DNA of 64,000 nucleotides, taken from contig CAVRNO010000004.1 in the NCBI GenBank assembly GCA_963722605.1, forward strand, positions 538,335 to 602,334, written 5' to 3'. The translations under genes were made by a program, and so were the position numbers. Positions 624-21,669 of this stretch are shown here, piece after piece. The notes under the pieces are model-generated. The model was not told the origin of the DNA and did no database searches. It saw only the letters and a list, made by a program, of their open reading frames with translations. Each line of letters starts with the position of its first letter. The stretch's first letter is position 1. This DNA is from Candidatus Binataceae bacterium. GTDB taxonomy: Bacteria; Desulfobacterota; Binatia; Binatales; Binataceae.

Positions 624-817
624 GATTCTCGATGAGCTGGCTCTCAGTGAGATTCTCGCCCATACAATACCTCTCATCCCTCTTCTTTTCATTCTGAAGA
701 TAGTCTCATGTTCGGGTGAATATGCGACTTCCCTCGGACTTTCGGGATCAATAGCATTTCACCAACTCCTGACTGCAACCTTGACGAAGAGCGCTAGTGC
801 CTTACAATCAAGAGGTC

Positions 818-1087
818 ATGAGCTTGGCCACAAGAAGAAAAAGAGGAGGTGGTCGCGTGCCGCAGTATCACTACACGGCCGTTTTTGAGCCCGCCGTAGA
901 GGGCGGCTATATCGTTTCTGTTCCCGCGCTCCCGGGGCTGGTTACCGAGGGCGACACCATCGAAGAAGCCCGTGCGATGGTCAAGGACGCCATCCGGGGT
1001 TACATCGAGAGTCTGGTGAAGCATGGCGAAGAGATCCCGATTGAATCCGGCACCGCCAACGTGGAGCGCGTCGAAATAACTATTTGA
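818..1087 (+). CDS. hicB: HicB-family antitoxin (UPF0150)
   Basis: HYTAVFEPAVEGGYIVSVPALPGLVTEGDTIEEARAMVKDAIRGYIESL matches the HicB fold pattern (Y.a..e...dGgY.a.vPdlPGc.TqGeT.EEA....eAI). Confidence 0.75.
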   Translation: MSLATRRKRGGGRVPQYHYTAVFEPAVEGGYIVSVPALPGLVTEGDTIEEARAMVKDAIRGYIESLVKHGEEIPIESGTANVERVEITI

Positions 1088-2294: not shown

Positions 2295-3026
2295 CTACTC
2301 CTTGGCGCCGCCACGTTGAAGCTCGCGCACAACCTCTGCCAGTCCCATCTGCTTGGCCCGCAGTAGCGGCGTCTCATCGGAGTATTTGACGTTCACGTCA
2401 GCGCCGTGCGCGATAAGTTCGTGCACAGTCTCCTCGTTTCCGCTCCAGACTGCTTGTGTCAGAGCTGTCCCACCGTCATTCTCCTTGGCGTTCACGTCAG
2501 CGCCGTGGGCGATAAGCTCGTGCACGATCTCGGGGCTTCTCATCTGGGCGGCATACATCAGCGCTGTCCGGCCCTCATTCTGCTTGGCGTTTACGTCAGC
2601 GCCGTGGGCAATAAGCTCGCTCGCGATTACAGCATTTCCCCCATCGGCGGCATCTATGAGCGCCGTATTGCCGCGCCACGGACCATGGGCGTTTACGTCA
2701 GCCCCGTGGGCGATAATCTCGCCCACAGTCTCCGCGTGGTTCCCCCATATGGCCCTCATTAGAGCCTCCTGTAGTGCTGGCTTATTCTGTTGCATTCCTG
2801 CGGCGAGAAAGAGCTGGACCGCCGTATTGTCTCCCTCTTGAACCTTTTGAAGGAAGGCAGCCTCACTGTATTCGACTCCCATCGCCTCCAGCTTGGCGCG
2901 TGCCTTCTCTTCGTGCGTCTGGCAGGCGGATATGGCCAGGGCCAGCAGGGAAATCAGTGCTGCGAGAATCAGGTTCGACTGTCCCCCGCGCAGCCGGCAG
3001 CGAACGCACTGGTTTGGTTCGCTCAT
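2295..3026 (-). CDS. Ankyrin-repeat lipoprotein
   Basis: Repeated LIAHGADVNAK...TAL ankyrin units, and an N-terminal signal ending in the lipobox LAISAC. Alternative start at 3044 (MEIPPNM). Confidence 0.8.
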   Translation of the reverse strand: MSEPNQCVRCRLRGGQSNLILAALISLLALAISACQTHEEKARAKLEAMGVEYSEAAFLQKVQEGDNTAVQLFLAAGMQQNKPALQEALMRAIWGNHAETVGEIIAHGADVNAHGPWRGNTALIDAADGGNAVIASELIAHGADVNAKQNEGRTALMYAAQMRSPEIVHELIAHGADVNAKENDGGTALTQAVWSGNEETVHELIAHGADVNVKYSDETPLLRAKQMGLAEVVRELQRGGAKE

Positions 3027-3033
3027 ATTAGGT

Positions 3034-3122
3034 GGAATTTCCATTTTGAATCGTGATCTCGCTTAGCACCAACCGTGGGCAGCTCGCAAACGCGAAGTTC
3101 GAACTAGATTTTGAGTGCAAGG
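3034..3122 (-). promoter_or_regulatory. Conserved upstream element, copy 2
   Basis: Same conserved blocks as 2046-2134. Here it abuts or overlaps the start of the ankyrin gene (AAAATGGAAATTCC contains the ATG at 3044). Confidence 0.45.
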
Positions 3123-6065: not shown

Positions 6066-6134
6066 ACACCTGTTGAAACAACCATGAAAGCCATTTCCGT
6101 AATCAAAAGACCTGTGATAACTCCAAGATTGGCG

Positions 6135-6941
6135 ATGAGTAAGGTGAGGAAGGAGGAGGCAAACGGCGACCTCAAACCGCCGTTAAAGTGGGCGGGCGGC
6201 AAGCGGTGGCAGGTTCCACACCTGCGCGCGTTGTGGGCAGATCATAAACACCGTCGCCTCGTAGAGCCGTTTTGCGGAGGACTCGCAGTTACGGTTGGAC
6301 TCTCTCCAGACCGGGCATTTCTCAACGATATTAATCCGCATCTGATAAATTTCTACCGCTCGCTCAAGCGCGGCCTGAGAACTTCGGTCGCGATGATGAA
6401 TGACGAGCTCGCGTACTACGAGCAACGCGCCCGCTTCAACCAACTTCTCGCGGAAGGCAAAGGTGATTGCGAGGAAGCCGCAGCTCTTTTCTATTACCTC
6501 AACCGAACGGGTTACAACGGTCTTTGCAGATTCAATCAGAGCGGCCGTTTCAACGTGCCGTTCGGTCAGTATGCCCAAATCACATATACGCGCGACTTCA
6601 TGCCCTACCGCAGGCTATTCGCCAAATGGGAATTCGTGAGCATGGACTTCGAGACTGTGCCGCTCGAAGACGAAGATTTTGTATACGCTGATCCTCCGTA
6701 CGACGTGGAGTTCACGCAATATTCAAAGCAGGGATTCAGTTGGGAGGAACAGGTACGCGCGGCCGAGTGGCTCGCGAAGCACCCGGGCCCCGTTGTGCTC
6801 TCGAACCAAGCCACGGAACGAATCGTGACCCTGTACCGGAAGCTAAAATTCAAGCTCAAGTTTCTCGATGCTCCTCGCATGATAAGTTGCACCGGCGATC
6901 GCACTCCGGCTCGGGAGGTTCTTGCGATCAGAAATTTCTAA
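6135..6941 (+). CDS. dam: Dam-family DNA adenine methyltransferase (GATC class)
   Basis: Motifs LKWAGGKRW, FCGGLAV and FVYADPPYD. The track ORF starts at 6084; the internal ATG at 6135 is the more likely start. Confidence 0.85.
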   Translation: MSKVRKEEANGDLKPPLKWAGGKRWQVPHLRALWADHKHRRLVEPFCGGLAVTVGLSPDRAFLNDINPHLINFYRSLKRGLRTSVAMMNDELAYYEQRARFNQLLAEGKGDCEEAAALFYYLNRTGYNGLCRFNQSGRFNVPFGQYAQITYTRDFMPYRRLFAKWEFVSMDFETVPLEDEDFVYADPPYDVEFTQYSKQGFSWEEQVRAAEWLAKHPGPVVLSNQATERIVTLYRKLKFKLKFLDAPRMISCTGDRTPAREVLAIRNF

Positions 6942-6944
6942 GTA

Positions 6945-7361
6945 ATGTCCCCTCGAAACACCACAACGGGCGGAGTTCTCGAAGCAATGATTCTGCCCGC
7001 GCTCAAGCAGGGCGGCTACACATTTCTGACGCAACAACATATCGGTGATCGCTTCGGTGGTGGCCGACACTTCGTCGACGTAATCGCAGAAAAGAACGGC
7101 CTGAAATATCTGGTGTCGCTCAAATGGCAACAGGTTTCAGGCACGGCCGAGCAGAAAGTTCCCTTCGAGATAATCTGCCTGGCGGACGCGGTTCGTCAGG
7201 GCACGTATGACAAAGCCTACCTCGTGCTCGGGGGAGAGGGCTGGAAGCTGCGAAGTTTTTTTGTTGGAGGGGGTTTGAAATCGTATCTTGTAGACGCTGA
7301 TACGGTTGACATCTTGACCCTCGAAGGCTTCGTCGGGAGAGCAAATCAGGGCAAGCTGTAA
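6945..7361 (+). CDS. Small PD-(D/E)xK nuclease-like protein (Mrr-cat / restriction-endonuclease-like fold)
   Basis: GGVLEAMILPALKQGGYTFL...GGGRHFVDVIAEKNGLKYLVSLKWQ follows the Mrr_cat pattern (G..FE..v..lL...GY......g.GD.GiDiiae.dg...lVQcK). It starts 4 nt after the dam stop. Confidence 0.5.
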   Translation: MSPRNTTTGGVLEAMILPALKQGGYTFLTQQHIGDRFGGGRHFVDVIAEKNGLKYLVSLKWQQVSGTAEQKVPFEIICLADAVRQGTYDKAYLVLGGEGWKLRSFFVGGGLKSYLVDADTVDILTLEGFVGRANQGKL

Positions 7362-7532
7362 TTTAAACACCCCGCGATCGCCGGGGTCCTACGTTAGAAA
7401 GCGCACTTCTGAAATTCCCCCTATTTATTGGGAAACAGCAAAGCGCTAACATCTTCAAATCGGCGAACTCAACAACTTGTTTTCGCCATTCCAGCATGAT
7501 GTATCGCGACGCGAGAGAGTAGTGGAGCAGTA

Positions 7533-8354
7533 ATGGCAGACGACACCACTCAACGGGCAGCTCACGGGTTCATTTTGGAACATCTCCAGTCTCAAGAGCC
7601 ATTCACAATTGATGAGTTCCGTACGGCAACCGGATGGAAGAAACCTGGAACGCTAAATACGTACCTCCGCAAGCAGTACAAAGGTTTATTCGAAAAGATC
7701 GGCACCGATCAGTACAGGGTATCCGAGGCGTTTCGAAAGCTCGTTAGTTGGCCAAAATTCAAGCAACACGTCACCCAAGTCCGTCGCGTCGTAACTAGCT
7801 ACGACCCGAGCATTTCGGAGGTGATGATTTACGACTTCCTCATGCCTCTCACGAACGAAGCACATCTGCGAACAACTCTCGACGCCTTGTTCTTCAAAGA
7901 TAGCCTTGTAGCGCGACTCAAAACCATCGGAGCGGCCGCGCTGAAAAGCAACCTGAAATTTGTCGATCAGCCCGATGACGCTTATCTGAAAACCGTTCTT
8001 GCATTCATCGAGGACCACTTCGTCGGTTACTCCATTTTTCATGTCGACGGACGATTCCGCGCCGGAAAGCTCAAGACCCAAGACGAAGTCGCCAACATTC
8101 AGAAGCGGGGCGAGAAATATCTGATCGACGAGACGACAGCAGTAGCACGGTTCATCTTTCCATACAAAGATTCCGACGAGCTCGAAAACATACGTTACCT
8201 TTTCCGAATATTGTTTGTGCGGAGCATAATTCAATTGGTGAACGGCGAAGAGCAGATCTGGATGATCGAGACAGGACCGCAGAATCGCGTTCACATCTGG
8301 CAACGGCTGGACGATGACGATGGAGGAGAAGCCGAAGAACAGGAGGAAGCATGA
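7533..8354 (+). CDS. Hypothetical protein (273 aa), possible N-terminal winged helix; first gene of a three-gene operon
   Basis: Long clean ORF with an acidic C-terminal tail; no recognised catalytic motif. Its stop overlaps the next start (ATGA). Confidence 0.5.
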   Translation: MADDTTQRAAHGFILEHLQSQEPFTIDEFRTATGWKKPGTLNTYLRKQYKGLFEKIGTDQYRVSEAFRKLVSWPKFKQHVTQVRRVVTSYDPSISEVMIYDFLMPLTNEAHLRTTLDALFFKDSLVARLKTIGAAALKSNLKFVDQPDDAYLKTVLAFIEDHFVGYSIFHVDGRFRAGKLKTQDEVANIQKRGEKYLIDETTAVARFIFPYKDSDELENIRYLFRILFVRSIIQLVNGEEQIWMIETGPQNRVHIWQRLDDDDGGEAEEQEEA

Positions 8355-8725
8355 CGTGTCGTGACTGGCTCCTAGCAAACCGCTACGAAGACGTAGCTTT
8401 GTTAATCGATAACGCTATCGCCAAAATGGTAGCTCGGGGTAGCAAACAGCGGAGAAACTGGTGGGATATTTTGTCAGGTGCCGTCGATGGAAGGCCCTGC
8501 GTTCGCGAAGGCATCGAGTTTCCGGTGCTGCGTACAGCCCAAATCCGCCAGGGTAAACCAATCACCAAGAACGCGATTGCGAGGAACAATCACGAAAAAC
8601 CTCCAGAAATCGTGACGACCGGCCGCTGGATAAAAAAGAAGCTACCAATCCGCGCTCAACCCTTAGCAAACGATCGATCCAACCCGCAGAAATCGGAACA
8701 ACTGAAACGGAGACGCGTGTCCTAG
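8351..8725 (+). CDS. Hypothetical protein (124 aa)
   Basis: Translationally coupled to the upstream gene; basic C-terminus; no recognised domain. Confidence 0.45.
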   Translation: MTCRDWLLANRYEDVALLIDNAIAKMVARGSKQRRNWWDILSGAVDGRPCVREGIEFPVLRTAQIRQGKPITKNAIARNNHEKPPEIVTTGRWIKKKLPIRAQPLANDRSNPQKSEQLKRRRVS

Positions 8726-8749
8726 CACACTCCTGCGGATCGAAATCCA

Positions 8750-9382
8750 TTGACGGAGGGCAAAACGGTGCATCCGGACACACGAGAAGTGGCGCACCAC
8801 ATGCGAGAATTCGGTCTGACTATTCTCGGGCGGGCTACTTACGACGTTACTTTCTCCGAGATGACGAAGCCATTTGCGCATGCAATGGCTGTGGCGCATG
8901 CGGCGCACGGCGCAGAAATCGCCATCAAGGCGCGCATTGCGCAGGAGCACCCATTACTCTTGTTTAAGAGTCTCCCAAAATCAACCAACGCCGAAAACCA
9001 ACTGACGGTTGCGGAGCTGTTTGAGTACGGACGCACCATCGAGTTTCACGATCTTCCGGAGTCGCTCTGGGCTGCCACCGGCATTCGGATGGACGGCGTC
9101 GAAGAGTACCAGCGGTTCGGGAAACTTCGAAACACTATCATCCATTTCGCCGTTCCAGATCACGACTTTGCCTGTGAGACACTCAAGTTCTTGTTTCAAG
9201 TGATGGAACCGTTGGGGCATCGCTTCTGGGATACGTCCATCTTGCCGTACGCAAGTGAGTGGGATGAGGTCGCGGTCTCAGACGGTTATTTAGAAGAACG
9301 ACTCGTCGAATGCGGCATTGATATCACACCTGATTTGCGCGCTGCGCTCGACGCCGAAAAGCCCCAGCCCTATGCGCCCTAG
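8750..9382 (+). CDS. HEPN-like protein (210 aa)
   Basis: Contains GKLRNTIIHFAVP, i.e. the R-x4-H HEPN signature in its typical RN...H context; 25 nt downstream of the preceding gene. Confidence 0.45.
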   Translation: MTEGKTVHPDTREVAHHMREFGLTILGRATYDVTFSEMTKPFAHAMAVAHAAHGAEIAIKARIAQEHPLLLFKSLPKSTNAENQLTVAELFEYGRTIEFHDLPESLWAATGIRMDGVEEYQRFGKLRNTIIHFAVPDHDFACETLKFLFQVMEPLGHRFWDTSILPYASEWDEVAVSDGYLEERLVECGIDITPDLRAALDAEKPQPYAP

Positions 9383-9701
9383 TAATGAAACAACTTGCCC
9401 TCTGCTACTCCGGTATGAAAATGCCTGGCTCGAGGCTCGCAAAGACAATAAACCGTCCGCGTCGAAGACTTCGCGTATTCGAGCCGTCGAATCATTGTCA
9501 TGTCGATTTCGCTGAAGGATAATGTGATTTTGGAGGATCTTGCTGATCATCTGTAATGATCTTTTGTAATGATTTTTTTGACCGCCAAGCCGTCGAATGC
9601 AAATAGAGTAAAGGTTTATCCACAGGACGGGCTTGATTCGAGCGAATAATTAGCGAACACTGTAGAGAGAACTTTAGCCAAAACGCGCAAGGAGGAAGCT
9701 A

Positions 9702-9794
9702 ATGGTGCCAAATATCTTTTGCCGCAAGTCGAGTTTCCTGATAAAAGATGCAGACAGTTCGTCAACCTTTGAGCGGAGGAGGAGGAGGAGCTGA
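9702..9794 (+). CDS. Possible 31-aa leader peptide (MVPNIFCRKSSFLIKDADSSSTFERRRRRS)
   Basis: Strong RBS AAGGAGG 6 nt upstream of the ATG; the stop abuts the next ATG; the ORF ends in five Arg codons (AGG x4, AGC). Confidence 0.25.
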   Translation: MVPNIFCRKSSFLIKDADSSSTFERRRRRS

Positions 9795-9816
9795 GATGGG
9801 TCGCGAAAACAACAAG

Positions 9817-10050
9817 ATGAAAGCCACCGATCCCGCGTCCGGGAGGGGCCTGCGGCGGGCAGCTAGGCTGAAGGCAAACATAGCGGATCGAACTACGTTC
9901 GAAGTGATGGGAGCTGCTCAAGGAGGCTGGCTGCGCAGTTACAACGGTCCTGGTCACGGGACAGCCCTACCCGGAAGTTCTGCTAAACGGCACCTACTAC
10001 CGAGGCATCGACGAAATCCGAGCCGGAGTAGCCGAGCTCAGAAGCCAGTA
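9817..10050 (+). CDS. Small DUF433-like ORF requiring a 1-nt frameshift near 9905
   Basis: N-terminal frame MKATDPASGRGLRRAARLKANIADRTTFEV, then the +1 frame ELLKEAGCAVTTVLVTGQPYPEVLLNGTYYRGIDEIRAGVAELRSQ*. The fused product resembles DUF433 (DP..G.P.i.GTRi.v..vl.ll..G....ile.YP.l..edI.aal.ya). It ends just before a strong terminator. Confidence 0.3.
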
Positions 10051-10094
10051 GGAATATCGCTGGTCGCCGAAGCAGAATCCAAGAAATGCTCCAC

Positions 10095-10130
10095 GGGCGG
10101 GTCGACGAAGAGTCGACCCGCTTTTTTTGC
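10095..10130 (+). terminator. Rho-independent terminator
   Basis: CGGGTCGAC-gaaga-GTCGACCCG: a 9-bp GC-rich stem followed by a T7 run (10122-10128). Confidence 0.6.
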
Positions 10131-10212
10131 TCGAAAATATGGACAACCAGCAGTCATTTCCGATACACAATTGGTTCCAGATACTTGATCTCATTTACGC
10201 TCCGCCGACGAC

Positions 10213-12873
10213 ATGAGCAAAGATTACATCATAGTTTGCGCCCCGGCAGGCACATCTCTTACTGAAGCAGTAAACAAGATACGCGACGCCCTGGGCGGAA
10301 CGCCCGCCGTGGAAACTGCGGACGTCGAATGGGAACTCCGCCATCTCTCCGCAACGCCCGCCGACCTGCTAAAGGCGGGGCGGAAGGTCGAGTCTAACAA
10401 GATAACAATGCACGATGTCACATTCTACCTGCCTCGCGAGAATGTCATCAACCTAGCAAACATGGGATTACTCAATGCACTGAAGAAACTTGCGGATTCA
10501 GATAAGCCTACTCTGGTCCTATCGTGTCATCTCACCTATTTCGGGAGTAAACGCTTTGAGTTTTATACCGGGATAGACCCAACGCTTCTTTCCGCACAGC
10601 TAAAACCAACGCGCCTTCTGTTGCTCATCGACGATATCTATGACATGTATATGCGTTTGAGCACCAATGTCGAACCCTTCTTTAGTTTAGAGAGCGCGAT
10701 GCGTTCTACTCTTGCGACTATTCAAAAAGAGGAGGAGATAGAGCTAGACAAACTAGAAGACGAGGACTTGATAACTCTTTGTCTTGCCGAGAAGCTTGGG
10801 ATGATGACACATTTGCTTTCGTGGAGACATCTTGAGACGGTCGTCGCTGAAGGTGTAGCTCGCCAGATCGGCTGTCCGTTCATGGTGTATGGTACGAAGC
10901 AAGCAATTGCGGCTGCAGCCAGCTGGTTGAGGAGCCTTCAACCGATTCAAGTGTACGCATCGCATCCTATCTCTAGAGTGCGTCGAGAATTTCGAAAAAG
11001 CGGTGATTGGGGAGAGCTCCCAGAACAAATCTTTCGCTTCCAGCGTCTTTTATTGAAAGATAATGTCGTCGTCCTGATGCCGACAGCAATTGATGAACGG
11101 CGTATCAAGCGTGGAGACGGCGGGCCGCTGCAGCGCATGCACGTAGAACTAGAGGCGCGCTGGCCATCTCCCAAACAGGCGGAGGCCTCGTTACTTCTCT
11201 ATACGCCTCCACCCGGGGATAACGACTGGGAACACACCAGGATACTTCGCTACGAAACTTGGGACCGCAAAAGAAAACTTCTTCAACCGGTCGGCACCAC
11301 GACGGTGAAAGTCGACCAGAAAGCAAATGTACTCTTACGAGAGTTTGAACGGCAATGCGAGAGAGCACTCGCGTCTAGAGACTATTTGCTCGTCTCTACA
11401 GCCAGGACCATCGTGGTATTTCGCCCTTTCATGGAAGTGCCTTCAGAACCGCGCGAAGGATTGTCTCGGGCGCTTAGTCAAGAGCTGGGACTCTGGGAGC
11501 TGATCGCCAAGTCGCATCCACCCCAAAAAGATAGTGATTTGACCGCTACTCCGAAGGCGTTATTCATTCATTTTAAGAAAGACGTCGACAGCTGGCGAGA
11601 GTACTATAATTCGGGCGAGCCACGGTCTGTCAGATTATATCAAGAGAGGGAAAGAGTCGTTGAACTGATCGCGGAGCCTCACTCTTGGACGTTAAAGCTC
11701 GCTCGGGAACTCCTGGAAGGTTTGGAGGAACGCAAGGAGAATTACTTCTCAGAAGGAAGTGTGCCGAAGTCGAAAGCCGACCAAGTACGACGGGAGTTGC
11801 CGACGCTTGTGGCGCAGGCGCACGAGGAATGGGAGAACTATCAACTTACCGGTGCGGTCCTCAAGTATTTCCGCTTGACACCGACAGACGAGGTGTTCGT
11901 TCAACGCGAACAAGTTCATCTTATCGTTGCAAAAGATATGGACGAGGTGGAACAAAGACAGCGCGAGATTACAGATTTTCTCGCCAGCGGCCTTAAACCG
12001 CCGCCGCTTGGAATCCTCGCACTTAAGGCTCTCCAGTCCTTCGGCGATACCGTCTCTCTGAAAACGACGCGAATCGTTCGCAACTACTACCGTTATTCCC
12101 CGGAAGCTCGGGAAACGCTCAGGTATTGGCGAAATCAGATAGAGAATCCTCTTCGAGACAAGAAGATACCCTGTACCAATTTCCTAATGTGGGGTGAGTC
12201 CGCCTGGGGGAAAACCTCTTTCATCGAGGAGATCGCAGAGGACCTGAAGGTGCTCGGCGTCAAGTCGAAGATTCTCAATGTCGCAAACTTAAAAAACAAG
12301 GAGGTTGACCTCAAACAAGAGCTCGCCGAGATCGACGCGACACCCGAGCCGATAATATGTTTAATTGATGAGATAACCACACCTCGCGCCGAATGGCCGT
12401 TGAACACATTGTTTCCCTTCCTACTTCCGTCCAAGCAATATCCTCACCGTCGGGTCGTCTTCGTAGTGGCAGGCAGCCGCGGTAAAAGTCTTGAAGAGCT
12501 TACGGGAGAAATTAAGGAGCTTTGCCCCAAGCAGCCGAGCGACCTGTTAAATCGCACCCCATATCAATTTGGCTTTCCTCAACCTCAACTCGAAGACTCT
12601 GTTTTGATTTTCACTTCGAAGGTCAAGTTGGCCTTTCCGAGTGTCGACCGAATCGAGAGAGCTTGTCTATTGTATGTGCTTACGGAAAAGCGGACTGGTC
12701 ATCTAATACACGCTTTGGTGCTCGGCCTTGAGTCTAAACTGTCACCTGCGCCGACAACTGTTCATTTGGACGACGTGCTTCCGGTCGCAAGTCCCGATCG
12801 TCTTAAATTTCTATCTCAATACCGGAGCCAGATTGATCAACTCTCTGACAGCTGCGTCCAGATTGAATCGTAA
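10213..12873 (+). CDS. Large uncharacterised protein (886 aa) with a C-terminal P-loop NTPase domain
   Basis: Uninterrupted ORF. Walker A LMWGESAWGKTSF and Walker B PIICLIDEITTP lie near residues 650-720; no motif was recognised in the ~600-aa N-terminal region. It sits immediately upstream of the integrase. Confidence 0.6.
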   Translation: MSKDYIIVCAPAGTSLTEAVNKIRDALGGTPAVETADVEWELRHLSATPADLLKAGRKVESNKITMHDVTFYLPRENVINLANMGLLNALKKLADSDKPTLVLSCHLTYFGSKRFEFYTGIDPTLLSAQLKPTRLLLLIDDIYDMYMRLSTNVEPFFSLESAMRSTLATIQKEEEIELDKLEDEDLITLCLAEKLGMMTHLLSWRHLETVVAEGVARQIGCPFMVYGTKQAIAAAASWLRSLQPIQVYASHPISRVRREFRKSGDWGELPEQIFRFQRLLLKDNVVVLMPTAIDERRIKRGDGGPLQRMHVELEARWPSPKQAEASLLLYTPPPGDNDWEHTRILRYETWDRKRKLLQPVGTTTVKVDQKANVLLREFERQCERALASRDYLLVSTARTIVVFRPFMEVPSEPREGLSRALSQELGLWELIAKSHPPQKDSDLTATPKALFIHFKKDVDSWREYYNSGEPRSVRLYQERERVVELIAEPHSWTLKLARELLEGLEERKENYFSEGSVPKSKADQVRRELPTLVAQAHEEWENYQLTGAVLKYFRLTPTDEVFVQREQVHLIVAKDMDEVEQRQREITDFLASGLKPPPLGILALKALQSFGDTVSLKTTRIVRNYYRYSPEARETLRYWRNQIENPLRDKKIPCTNFLMWGESAWGKTSFIEEIAEDLKVLGVKSKILNVANLKNKEVDLKQELAEIDATPEPIICLIDEITTPRAEWPLNTLFPFLLPSKQYPHRRVVFVVAGSRGKSLEELTGEIKELCPKQPSDLLNRTPYQFGFPQPQLEDSVLIFTSKVKLAFPSVDRIERACLLYVLTEKRTGHLIHALVLGLESKLSPAPTTVHLDDVLPVASPDRLKFLSQYRSQIDQLSDSCVQIES

Positions 12874-21280: not shown

Positions 21281-21592
21281 ATGGACGGTTCGGAACGCTG
21301 GTACTCGATTAAGGAGGTTGCAGCGCGGTACGGAGTCGGACGGGATACGATAGTCCGGCGGATCAAGAAAGGGCACTTGAAGGCGCTCGTCATGCCGGGC
21401 AAATCGTCCGTGCGGAGCCGAGTGTACAATGTGCGCCGTATTCACGAGAGCGAGTGCAACGCTTCGAGCGGGAGAACACGGTGTCCCGCTAGGGTACGAG
21501 GAGGGCGGTCGATTGACCGCCTTTCTTTTTGGCGTACTTGGGGCGTACTTGGGAGGCGCGTTTTCCGCGCTTTGTGCATATCGAGAGTGTAG
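21281..21592 (+). CDS. Excisionase / AlpA-like HTH DNA-binding protein
   Basis: WYSIKEVAARYGVGRDTIVRRIKKGHLKALVMPG is the excisionase-family HTH. GGAG RBS ~9 nt upstream. The C-terminal part of the ORF is probably non-functional read-through. Confidence 0.55.
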   Translation: MDGSERWYSIKEVAARYGVGRDTIVRRIKKGHLKALVMPGKSSVRSRVYNVRRIHESECNASSGRTRCPARVRGGRSIDRLSFWRTWGVLGRRVFRALCISRV

Positions 21593-21629
21593 GAAAATCA
21601 AAGACTTTATGATTGGCGGGACGGCTTGA

Positions 21630-21654
21630 TGGTTCAATTCCCCCCGCCTCCACC
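21630..21654 (+). other. tmRNA/tRNA 3'-end-like fragment (T-loop, acceptor 3' strand, CCA); candidate attR core
   Basis: GGTTCAATTCCCCCCGCCTCCACCA resembles the 3' end of ssrA (remembered E. coli end ...GGGGGUUCAAAUCCCCCCAGCUCCACCA). The upstream GATGG cannot form the T-stem with CCCCC and no cloverleaf body is present, so this is a fragment rather than a gene. It coincides with the G+C shift. Confidence 0.45.
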
Positions 21655-21669
21655 AATTTCAGGTGCTTG

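What the first reader, a model, noticed from the sequence alone, without database searches (positions are those of the whole stretch)
7533..9382. Three-gene operon of unknowns ending in a HEPN-like protein, inside a defence-type neighbourhood
Three tightly coupled genes follow the Dam MTase and Mrr-cat-like nuclease: a 273-aa protein with a possible winged-helix N-terminus, a 124-aa basic protein (stop/start overlap ATGA), and a 210-aa protein carrying an R-x4-H HEPN signature (GKLRNTIIHF). HEPN RNases typically act as toxin or effector modules of abortive-infection, TA and CRISPR-ancillary systems. The two partner proteins match nothing I recognise, so this could be an undescribed HEPN-based defence or toxin-antitoxin system carried by the mobile element.
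Basis: partly seen in the sequence, partly recalled or inferred. Interest (0 to 1): 0.8.

Follow-up and report, generated by a model that had tools for sequence, protein, structure and literature searches.

The report
Methylase-linked gene module plus HEPN RNase
The three genes are real and the third does encode a HEPN-type RNase, but they are not one system: the first two belong to an undescribed, widely spread gene module built around the upstream DNA methylase, and the HEPN gene is an optional add-on that also turns up inside ordinary restriction-modification operons.

Summary
ORFs A (7533-8354), B (8351-8725, ATGA overlap) and C (8750/8768-9382, GKLRNTIIHF) exist.

The triad A-B-C is not the conserved unit. 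In 49 loci with adequate flanks, A lies within 3 kb of a DNA methylase in 84%, of B in 61%, of the small PDDEXK_11 nuclease in 57%, and of C in 6%. B is fused to the methylase in some genomes and to A in others. A relative with 97% identical A carries a different gene in C's place.

C is often solo. Its only recurrent neighbour is a Dam-family methylase, and it is embedded in AlwI-type and DpnII-type restriction-modification (R-M) operons.

A's N-terminal winged helix also occurs fused to TIR, protein kinase and DUF3644-HEPN domains in neighbouring genes.

Best reading: an uncharacterised methylase-anchored, R-M-like module (methylase, PDDEXK_11, A, B) on an integrative mobile element, with an R-M-associated HEPN RNase as facultative back-up. 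The architecture is shown; the biochemistry is inferred.

The parts
6084..6941 (+). Dam-family (D12 class) N6-adenine DNA methylase. It is the anchor of the conserved module.
   Evidence: TIGR00571 E 2e-55 and PF02086 E 8e-38. The FCGG and DPPY motifs are visible in the translation. A DNA methylase lies within 3 kb of A in 41 of 49 well-flanked loci.
6945..7361 (+). Small PD-(D/E)XK protein of family PDDEXK_11. It is the presumed nuclease subunit and is optional in the module.
   Evidence: PF20472 E 2e-11. D45, K60, E69 and K71 are at least 95% conserved in 31 homologues down to 21% identity. It is present in 28 of 49 A loci. It also occurs with a D12 methylase, a DUF7226-like protein and C in L108.
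7362..7532 (+). 171-nt spacer with blocks conserved in close relatives; possibly an internal promoter or operator for A-B(-C). The hairpin at 7369-7387 carries a GATC in its loop.
   Evidence: Aligned with L005 and L006: the blocks TATTTATTGG and ACAACTTGTTTTCG (TTGACA in the relatives) are conserved. Hairpin found. The spacer is absent in more distant loci, where PDDEXK_11 abuts A.
7533..8354 (+). Protein A: N-terminal winged helix (about 5-80), a conserved alpha/beta domain (about 96-257) of unknown activity, and an acidic tail (259-273).
8351..8725 (+). Protein B: a basic core of about 95 aa (RRNWW, FPVL..AQ.RQG, RW) plus a variable basic tail. It is the presumed adaptor between A and the methylase.
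   Evidence: Alignment A4. Fused to the D12 methylase in L023, L024, L033 and L036. Fused to A in P0398, P0441 and P0475. The 4-nt A/B overlap recurs in L006, L007, L009 and L014.
8768..9382 (+). Protein C: a single-domain HEPN protein with the RNxxxH motif (coded at about 9128-9145). It is a facultative accessory gene. An alternative TTG start lies at 8750.

Best explanation
The interval holds two things that happen to be adjacent here.

(1) A and B are the conserved partners of the upstream Dam-family DNA methylase and, in most genomes, of the small PDDEXK_11 nuclease. Together they form a 3-4 gene, methylase-anchored, restriction-modification-like module carried by different mobile elements in uncultured soil and sediment bacteria.

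Shown:
- The gene set stays together although gene order and strand are shuffled.
- B is fused to the methylase in some genomes and to A in others.
- A and B are translationally coupled.
- A's winged helix is a module that elsewhere carries TIR, protein-kinase or HEPN-nuclease domains.

Inferred:
- B docks A onto the methylase.
- The methylase marks self DNA.
- A's winged helix contacts DNA.
- A's conserved alpha/beta domain, with PDDEXK_11 where present, is the effector that acts on unmarked incoming DNA or on the infected cell.

(2) C is a stand-alone HEPN ribonuclease of a family without a Pfam model. It is often solo, but it is repeatedly inserted in or beside Dam-family R-M operons.

Inferred by analogy with PrrC-EcoprrI and with embedded HEPN defence genes: C is a second-line, abortive-infection-type RNase, used when the DNA-level barrier fails. 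In this window it has landed in the variable cargo slot just after B.
For: Module:
- In 49 A loci with at least 3 kb on both sides, a DNA methylase lies within 3 kb in 41 (D12 class in 37, N6_N4 class in 10). PDDEXK_11 is present in 28, B in 30 and C in 3.
- The same families stay together in different orders and orientations (L023, L024, L033, L035, L036, L038).
- Methylase-B and B-methylase fusions occur in four loci. A-B fusions occur in P0398, P0441 and P0475.
- A is found next to a methylase without PDDEXK_11 in at least 8 loci.
- A's winged helix is fused to TIR_2 (E 3e-20), Pkinase, or DUF3644 (E 3e-51) in neighbouring genes.
- PDDEXK_11 keeps D45, E69 and K71.

C:
- HEPN fold and an invariant RNxxxH motif.
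- Its only recurrent neighbour is a D12 methylase, in 10 of 84 loci.
- Operons seen: methylase-C-RE_AlwI (L078, L091); double methylase-DUF7226-C-RE_AlwI (L087); Dam-N6_N4-DpnII REase-C (L120/L121)..
- It is in-operon with the A/B module in L033, L035 and L038. It is absent after B in the 97%-identical relative L156.

Literature:
- At least 16 HEPN clades are linked to R-M systems, with the PrrC model proposed for them (PMC3710099).
- DUF3644 is a HEPN family found in R-M operons.
- HEC-08, a single HEPN gene embedded in another defence system, protects against phage and needs the motif histidine (10.1101/2024.01.29.577857).
Against: - Seven distant A homologues (31-36% identity) sit in housekeeping contexts with no methylase nearby. 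This argues that A is not always methylase-dependent and not necessarily toxic alone.
- Many C homologues are solo genes in non-defence contexts (L072).
- Only 4 of 18 C loci with at least 2 kb on both sides have a methylase within 3 kb.
- The methylase's target sequence is unknown, and GATC is not avoided in the window.
- No member of any of these families is from a cultured or tested organism.
- No PADLOC model matches reliably.
Confidence: 0.55

Rival explanations
1. One reading: A, B and C are one self-contained HEPN-based toxin-antitoxin or defence triad, with A and/or B controlling the HEPN toxin.
For: In the window and its closest relatives, B is followed within 24-48 nt by C on the same strand (L075 and L076). 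No terminator separates them. C is in-operon with A/B in L035 and L038.
Against: C accompanies A in only 6% of well-flanked A loci. C is replaced by an unrelated 485-aa gene in a relative whose A is 97% identical. C occurs in divergent and convergent orientations relative to the module (L001, L093). C is mostly solo or lies in other R-M operons. No MNT-type antitoxin is present.
Confidence: 0.07
2. A-B is not a defence effector. It is a regulatory or epigenetic accessory of the methylase: for example a controller of methylase expression, or a reader of methylation state that targets or tunes the enzyme. PDDEXK_11 plus the methylase would then be an ordinary Type II R-M pair.
For: A has a DNA-binding winged helix. 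B is fused to the methylase. Methylase-A-B exists without any nuclease in at least 8 loci. Solo A homologues are tolerated without a methylase. A conserved spacer with a GATC-containing hairpin lies before A.
Against: A's large C-terminal domain has about 15 invariant polar residues clustered on the predicted strands and helices: H170, D172, R174, R176, E200, T201, R206, E239 and H254 among them. That is more than a regulator needs. The same winged helix is fused to TIR, kinase and HEPN effector domains in the same islands, which places A's C-terminal domain in an effector slot. Known R-M controller proteins are about 80-aa HTH proteins (general knowledge).
Confidence: 0.2
3. A-B is an independent two-gene toxin-antitoxin or addiction cassette that merely hitch-hikes beside methylase genes in mobile islands.
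For: The genes are tightly coupled, one acidic and one very basic. There is a weak sequence match of A residues 41-100 to the YoeB toxin (E 3e-4). The surrounding islands are rich in TA genes (HicB at 797-1087; Phd/YoeB and BrnT/BrnA near C homologues).
Against: Fusions of B to the methylase in four loci, and adjacency of A to methylases of two unrelated classes, are not expected for a hitch-hiker. The YoeB-like stretch is predicted as winged helix plus helices, not a RelE-type sheet.
Confidence: 0.08
4. C is a non-catalytic or housekeeping HEPN protein (nucleotide- or protein-binding, or RNA processing), and its proximity to R-M genes reflects co-mobilisation only.
For: Many C homologues are single genes between housekeeping genes (L072). 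Some HEPN families are non-catalytic (PMC3710099).
Against: R, N and H of the catalytic motif are invariant in 83 sequences down to 32% identity. C is inserted between a methylase and its endonuclease with overlapping stop and start codons in L078 and L091, which is hard to explain by drift. The distribution is patchy and linked to mobile elements across phyla.
Confidence: 0.1

Closest known systems
PrrC anticodon nuclease embedded in the EcoprrI type Ic R-M locus, and the other R-M-linked HEPN clades of Anantharaman et al. 2013 (PMC3710099)
   Same: A HEPN RNase gene with an Rx4-6H motif sits inside or beside R-M operons. The proposed role is a second-line suicidal RNase, held in check by the R-M proteins.
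   Different: PrrC carries an N-terminal ABC-type NTPase and sits in a type I system. C is a single 200-aa domain with no Pfam model. It associates with Dam-family Type II/IIS-like operons and is often solo. No masking interaction has been shown.
HEPN-MNT type II/VII toxin-antitoxin systems (e.g. SO_3166/SO_3165, PDB 5yep; 7ae2)
   Different: No MNT nucleotidyltransferase gene lies next to C in any locus examined. C has about 70 extra C-terminal residues and a second invariant patch (E50, K54, H61-P62).
HEC-08, a DUF3644-HEPN single-gene defence embedded in Hma systems (bioRxiv 10.1101/2024.01.29.577857)
   Same: A stand-alone HEPN gene nested within another defence locus. Its defence depends on the histidine of the motif.
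   Different: It belongs to a different HEPN family, has C-terminal zinc ribbons, and has a different host system. C is untested.
DpnII-type (GATC) and AlwI-type (GGATC) Type II R-M systems
   Same: A Dam-family D12 methylase with an adjacent endonuclease. C homologues are embedded in exactly such operons (L120, L078, L087).
   Different: In the window the nuclease candidate is a 138-aa PDDEXK_11 protein with no DNA-recognition domain. Two further conserved proteins (A, B) are present, and the module persists without any nuclease in some genomes.
EC042_2821 family (wHTH-HEPN[DUF3644]-REase proteins of R-M operons; PMC3710099)
   Same: An N-terminal winged helix homologous to A's (E 1.5e-11 in L088) is fused to an effector and encoded next to methylases.
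   Different: A carries a different C-terminal domain, not otherwise seen, in place of HEPN-REase.
Type I and Type III R-M complexes (as a working analogy only)
   Same: The restriction components act only in a complex organised around the methylase. The fusion evidence (B-methylase, A-B) suggests a comparable methylase-anchored assembly.
   Different: There is no helicase or ATPase, no specificity subunit, and no sequence relationship. The analogy rests on inference.

Membership tests
HEPN superfamily (protein C) | Four-helix up-down bundle HEPN fold | tested here: met
HEPN superfamily (protein C) | Conserved Rx4-6H motif, usually with a polar residue after the R | tested here: met
   R121-N122-T-I-I-H126 is invariant in 83 homologues at 32-90% identity.
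HEPN superfamily (protein C) | Metal-independent endoribonuclease activity | not testable with these tools
   Needs purified protein and R121A/H126A mutants.
Any described HEPN family (Pfam, NCBIfam, PADLOC models) | Significant match to a family model | tested here: not met
   No Pfam, NCBIfam or PHROG hit at E up to 1 other than noise. The PADLOC PDC-S64 hit has E 0.013. C is therefore a HEPN clade without a model.
HEPN-MNT toxin-antitoxin | Adjacent MNT (minimal nucleotidyltransferase) antitoxin gene | tested here: not met
   A and B have no nucleotidyltransferase signature. Clustering the neighbours of C in 84 loci gave a D12 methylase as the only recurrent partner.
Type II restriction-modification system (methylase + PDDEXK_11) | DNA methylase with SAM-binding and DPPY catalytic motifs | tested here: met
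   TIGR00571 at 188 bits (cut-off 114.85) and PF02086. FCGG and DPPY are visible in the translation.
Type II restriction-modification system (methylase + PDDEXK_11) | Cognate sequence-specific endonuclease encoded next to the methylase | tested here: inconclusive
   PDDEXK_11 keeps D45, E69-x-K71 and is adjacent to A in 57% of loci. It has only 138 aa and no solved or characterised relative. It is dispensable in at least 8 loci.
Known anti-phage defence systems (PADLOC-DB 2.0) | Component proteins match the system's models | tested here: not met
   Only the methylase matches (MTase_II and orphan MTase models). A's PDC-M01B hit (E 1.3e-3) is seen in 1 of 36 family members and is treated as chance.
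RelE/YoeB toxin (protein A, residues 41-100) | RelE-type alpha/beta fold with a catalytic C-terminal sheet | tested here: not met
   The sequence match is 23 bits, E 3e-4. The region is modelled as the third helix and wing of a winged helix plus two helices.

The most novel reading that the evidence does not exclude
Methylase-B-A (with or without PDDEXK_11) is a new class of methylation-gated immune system. A winged-helix 'reader' is tethered to the self-marking methylase through the B adaptor. It carries interchangeable effector domains: A's own novel domain, or TIR, protein kinase or HEPN-nuclease in paralogous genes of the same islands. Unmethylated incoming DNA would then trigger an enzymatic effector rather than, or in addition to, simple DNA cutting. 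The HEPN protein C would be one of several plug-in back-up effectors at the cargo slot after B.
Probability: 0.3. Interest if true: 0.8.

Novelty: new variant of a known kind. Interest (0 to 1): 0.6.

Why it matters
If the module works as inferred, it adds a widespread kind of methylase-anchored defence that has gone unseen. There are 464 protein clusters at 50% identity, spread over Acidobacteriota, Chloroflexota, Myxococcota/Deltaproteobacteria, Binatia, Verrucomicrobiota, Gammaproteobacteria and other phyla, and all are from uncultured organisms.

Its 'restriction' side uses two protein families of unknown biochemistry. One of them has a DNA-binding head that is swapped among TIR, kinase and HEPN effectors. 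That links classical R-M logic (mark self, attack unmarked) with abortive-infection effectors, and it gives concrete proteins to test.

C defines a HEPN clade with no family model. It has a clean, testable association with GATC-type R-M operons, which makes it a compact system for testing the long-proposed 'R-M plus HEPN back-up' model.

Tried and rejected
- PADLOC hit of A to PDC-M01B (E 1.3e-3): only 1 of 36 family members matches, so it is treated as chance. A literature search on PDC-M01 was uninformative.
- PADLOC PDC-S64 (E 0.013) and Pfam SycN (E 0.056) hits for C: below any meaningful threshold.
- YoeB-like PDB match of A: conflicts with the predicted secondary structure, so not accepted.
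- PDB sequence searches for B and PDDEXK_11: nothing.
- tblastn of A and PDDEXK_11 against PLSDB plasmids, and of A against INPHARED phages: no match. IMG/VR scan: none for A, one for C.
- GATC avoidance in the window as a clue to specificity: 443 sites observed against 435 expected, so uninformative.
- The 886-aa AAA-like gene, the integrase and ParAB as parts of the system: not found near A or C in other loci.
- The afdb50 fold library was unavailable. The exact-sequence contig look-up of P0001 failed. A search for 'PDDEXK_11'/'PF20472' in the literature found nothing.
Full report
**1. Observation**

The three ORFs exist exactly as described.
- A is 7533-8354 (273 aa).
- B is 8351-8725 (124 aa). 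Its start overlaps A's stop in ATGA, and its pI is 10.9.
- C is 8750-9382. The identical database protein is 204 aa (P0001), and a GGAGG precedes GTG 8768, so C most likely starts at 8768.

Upstream lie a Dam-family D12 methylase (6084-6941; TIGR00571 E 2e-55) and a 138-aa PD-(D/E)XK protein of family PDDEXK_11 (6945-7361; PF20472 E 2e-11).

Pfam, NCBIfam, PHROGs and PADLOC give nothing credible for A, B or C.

The surrounding 3.5-21 kb has lower G+C (0.50-0.61, mostly below 0.58, against mostly 0.58-0.67 beyond 21 kb). It encodes ParA/ParB, an HTH_36 protein, a tyrosine integrase, DUF932, a CHC2 zinc-finger (primase-type) protein and two TraG/TraD-like coupling proteins. It is an integrative, conjugative-type mobile element.

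**2. Protein C is a HEPN protein**

C has at least 411 homologues of about 200 aa in many phyla, none with a Pfam domain or a name.

R121, N122 and H126 are invariant in 83 homologues down to 32% identity. H61-P62 are also invariant, and E50 and K54 nearly so.

The fold and motif criteria for HEPN are therefore met. Activity is untested. Because no family model matches, C represents a HEPN clade without a model.

**3. The triad is not the conserved unit**

A scan of one genome per species with a profile of A returned 67 loci, all from metagenome-assembled genomes. They come from Acidobacteriota, Binatia, Deltaproteobacteria/Myxococcota, Chloroflexota, Verrucomicrobiota, Gammaproteobacteria, Gracilibacteria, Fibrobacteres and Armatimonadota.

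I searched these loci by tblastn and by iterated HMMs. Among the 49 loci with at least 3 kb on both sides of A:

| Gene within 3 kb of A | Loci | Share |
|---|---|---|
| Any DNA methylase (D12 class in 37, N6_N4 class in 10) | 41 | 84% |
| B | 30 | 61% |
| PDDEXK_11 | 28 | 57% |
| C | 3 | 6% |

- The commonest layout is methylase, PDDEXK_11, A, B on one strand with minimal gaps.
- At least eight loci have methylase-A-B with no nuclease.
- In the more divergent variants (L023, L024, L033, L035, L036, L038) the same families stay together although order and strand differ.
- A relative whose A is 97% identical (L156/L157) has methylase-PDDEXK_11-A-B followed by an unrelated 485-aa gene instead of C. 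It sits on an element with a serine recombinase.
- The genes downstream of B are unrelated from locus to locus.
- B followed by C, as in the window, is seen in the close relatives L075 and L076, where C is 86-90% identical.

**4. Fusions tie A, B and the methylase together**

B is fused to the C-terminus of the D12 methylase in L023, L024 and L033, and to its N-terminus in L036.

In a profile search of 1.84 billion representative proteins, A's family comprises 464 clusters (188 with E up to 1e-30). Three of the long hits (P0398, P0441, P0475) are A-B fusions.

The 4-nt A/B overlap recurs in other loci.

These are classical Rosetta-stone indications that A, B and the methylase act as one complex, with B as the connecting piece.

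**5. What A is**

The model (pLDDT 83.5) shows three parts:
- a winged helix (residues 5-63, plus two helices);
- an alpha/beta domain (96-257);
- a disordered acidic tail.

The alpha/beta domain carries many invariant polar residues on its predicted strands and helices. They include E109, D117, H170, D172, R174, R176, E200, T201, R206, E239 and H254.

The winged helix is a mobile module, found fused to other effector-type domains:
- With a TIR domain in genes lying convergent to the module in L008, L015 and L017.
- With a Ser/Thr kinase next to an N6_N4 methylase in L006, L012, L015 and L066.
- With DUF3644 in L088. DUF3644 is a HEPN family (EC042_2821), described as wHTH-HEPN-REase proteins of R-M operons (PMC3710099).

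A's C-terminal domain therefore occupies the position that effector domains occupy in its paralogues.

Seven distant A homologues stand alone in housekeeping neighbourhoods. This cautions against assuming that A is always methylase-dependent.

**6. What C associates with**

A metagenome scan with C's profile gave 80 loci. I clustered all neighbouring ORFs in these plus four C loci fetched earlier, 84 in all. The only recurrent, non-overlapping neighbour is a D12 methylase, in 10 of the 84 loci.

C is embedded in classical R-M operons:
- methylase-C-RE_AlwI, with overlapping stops and starts (L078, L091; PF09491 E 2.5e-134);
- double D12 methylase-DUF7226 protein-C-RE_AlwI (L087);
- Dam-type methylase-N6_N4 methylase-DpnII endonuclease-C (L120/L121; PF04556 E 4e-89);
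- C-methylase-NOV_C nuclease (L115);
- C convergent with a methylase plus a DUF6996/6997/7226 protein (L088);
- C convergent with methylase-DUF7226-like protein-PDDEXK_11 (L108).

C lies beside the A/B module in five of the 80 loci from this scan, in co-directional, convergent or divergent orientation. It is in-operon in L033, L035 and L038.

Elsewhere it is solo, between housekeeping genes (L072) or near TA genes (L004, L074).

This fits an established theme. At least 16 HEPN clades are linked to R-M systems, and the PrrC-EcoprrI model has been proposed for them (PMC3710099). A single HEPN gene embedded in another defence system protects against phage in a manner that depends on the motif histidine (10.1101/2024.01.29.577857).

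**7. Mechanism proposed**

Shown:
- the gene architecture;
- the fusions;
- the HEPN fold and motif;
- conservation of D45, E69 and K71 in PDDEXK_11.

Inferred:
- The methylase marks host DNA.
- B tethers A to the methylase.
- A's winged helix engages DNA.
- A's C-terminal domain, together with the PDDEXK_11 nuclease where present, acts on unmarked DNA or on the infected cell.
- C is an independent back-up RNase, active when the DNA-level barrier is bypassed.

In the window's lineage a 171-nt spacer lies before A. It has conserved blocks and a -35-like TTGACA in the relatives. A-B-C may therefore be transcribed separately from methylase-PDDEXK_11, which is why the genes looked like a three-gene operon.

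**8. Verdict**

The HEPN call is right. The 'triad' interpretation is not.

It is an undescribed, widely distributed methylase-PDDEXK_11-A-B module, with a facultative R-M-associated HEPN gene beside it.

The association of HEPN with R-M systems is a known kind. The A and B families, and the swapping of A's winged helix among TIR, kinase and HEPN effectors beside methylases, are new as far as I could find.

I rate this as a new variant of a known kind, with interest 0.6.

Noticed in passing
L008:11317-12195(-), L015:8019-8774(-), L017:11370-12251(-): Proteins of about 290 aa with A's N-terminal winged helix fused to a TIR domain (PF13676, E 3e-20). Each lies immediately downstream of, and convergent with, the methylase-A-B module.
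   Followed up: partly
L066:12172-13035, L015:9793-10788, L006:11810-12901(-), L012:2371-2734: The same winged helix fused to a Ser/Thr protein kinase domain. It is usually encoded next to an N6_N4-class DNA methylase (cluster c4), just beyond the A-B module. This looks like a second methylase-plus-wHTH-effector pair in the same islands.
   Followed up: partly
L088:6593-7969(+): A 458-aa protein with the A-type winged helix plus DUF3644 (a HEPN family). It lies directly upstream of a C homologue, giving two different HEPN proteins in tandem beside a D12 methylase and a DUF6996/6997/7226 protein.
   Followed up: partly
L156:11405-12862 and L157:4038-5495: An unannotated 485-aa gene occupies the slot after B, where the window has C, in the relative whose A is 97% identical. 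It is followed by DUF2971 and HATPase_c_3 genes. It may be another plug-in accessory.
   Followed up: no
window 10213-12873 (+): An 886-aa ORF with only a weak AAA-type match at residues 650-760 (PF00004, E 2e-3) and no family assignment. It is not found near A or C in any other locus.
   Followed up: partly
window 9383-10212: An 830-nt stretch with no convincing ORF. It has a promoter-like site at 9495-9523 and a strong intrinsic terminator at 10095-10123 (12-bp stem, T-run). There is no Rfam match. It could be a small RNA or a decayed gene.
   Followed up: partly
window 21552-21655 (+): A weak tmRNA-like match (14 bits, far below the gathering score; ARAGORN finds no tmRNA). It lies at the point where G+C rises from about 0.52 to about 0.63. 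It may be an attachment-site remnant marking the end of the mobile element.
   Followed up: no
window 7533-8354, residues 41-100 of A: A profile match to Staphylococcus YoeB toxin sequences in the PDB (E 3e-4, 23 bits), including the '..RRI..HRVVY' region. It disagrees with the predicted winged-helix and helical structure. Unexplained, probably chance.
   Followed up: partly
L120:2864-3736 and L121:7728-8600: A C homologue with a roughly 90-aa N-terminal extension containing a CxxC-type motif. It lies at the end of a complete DpnII-type operon (Dam-type methylase, N6_N4 methylase, DpnII endonuclease).
   Followed up: no
window 797-1087 (+) and 2295-3044 (-): A HicB-like antitoxin gene without an obvious HicA partner of at least 60 aa, and an ankyrin-repeat protein that may carry a signal or lipoprotein-like N-terminus, near the left end of the window.
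   Followed up: no
L001:3752-4483, 9021-10445, 10827-12359: The Vicinamibacterales locus that carries methylase-PDDEXK_11-A-B and a divergent C also encodes Abi_alpha, a TIR-like (CAP12-PCTIR, faint) protein and a ThiF-family protein within 5 kb. This is a defence-island-like context.
   Followed up: no
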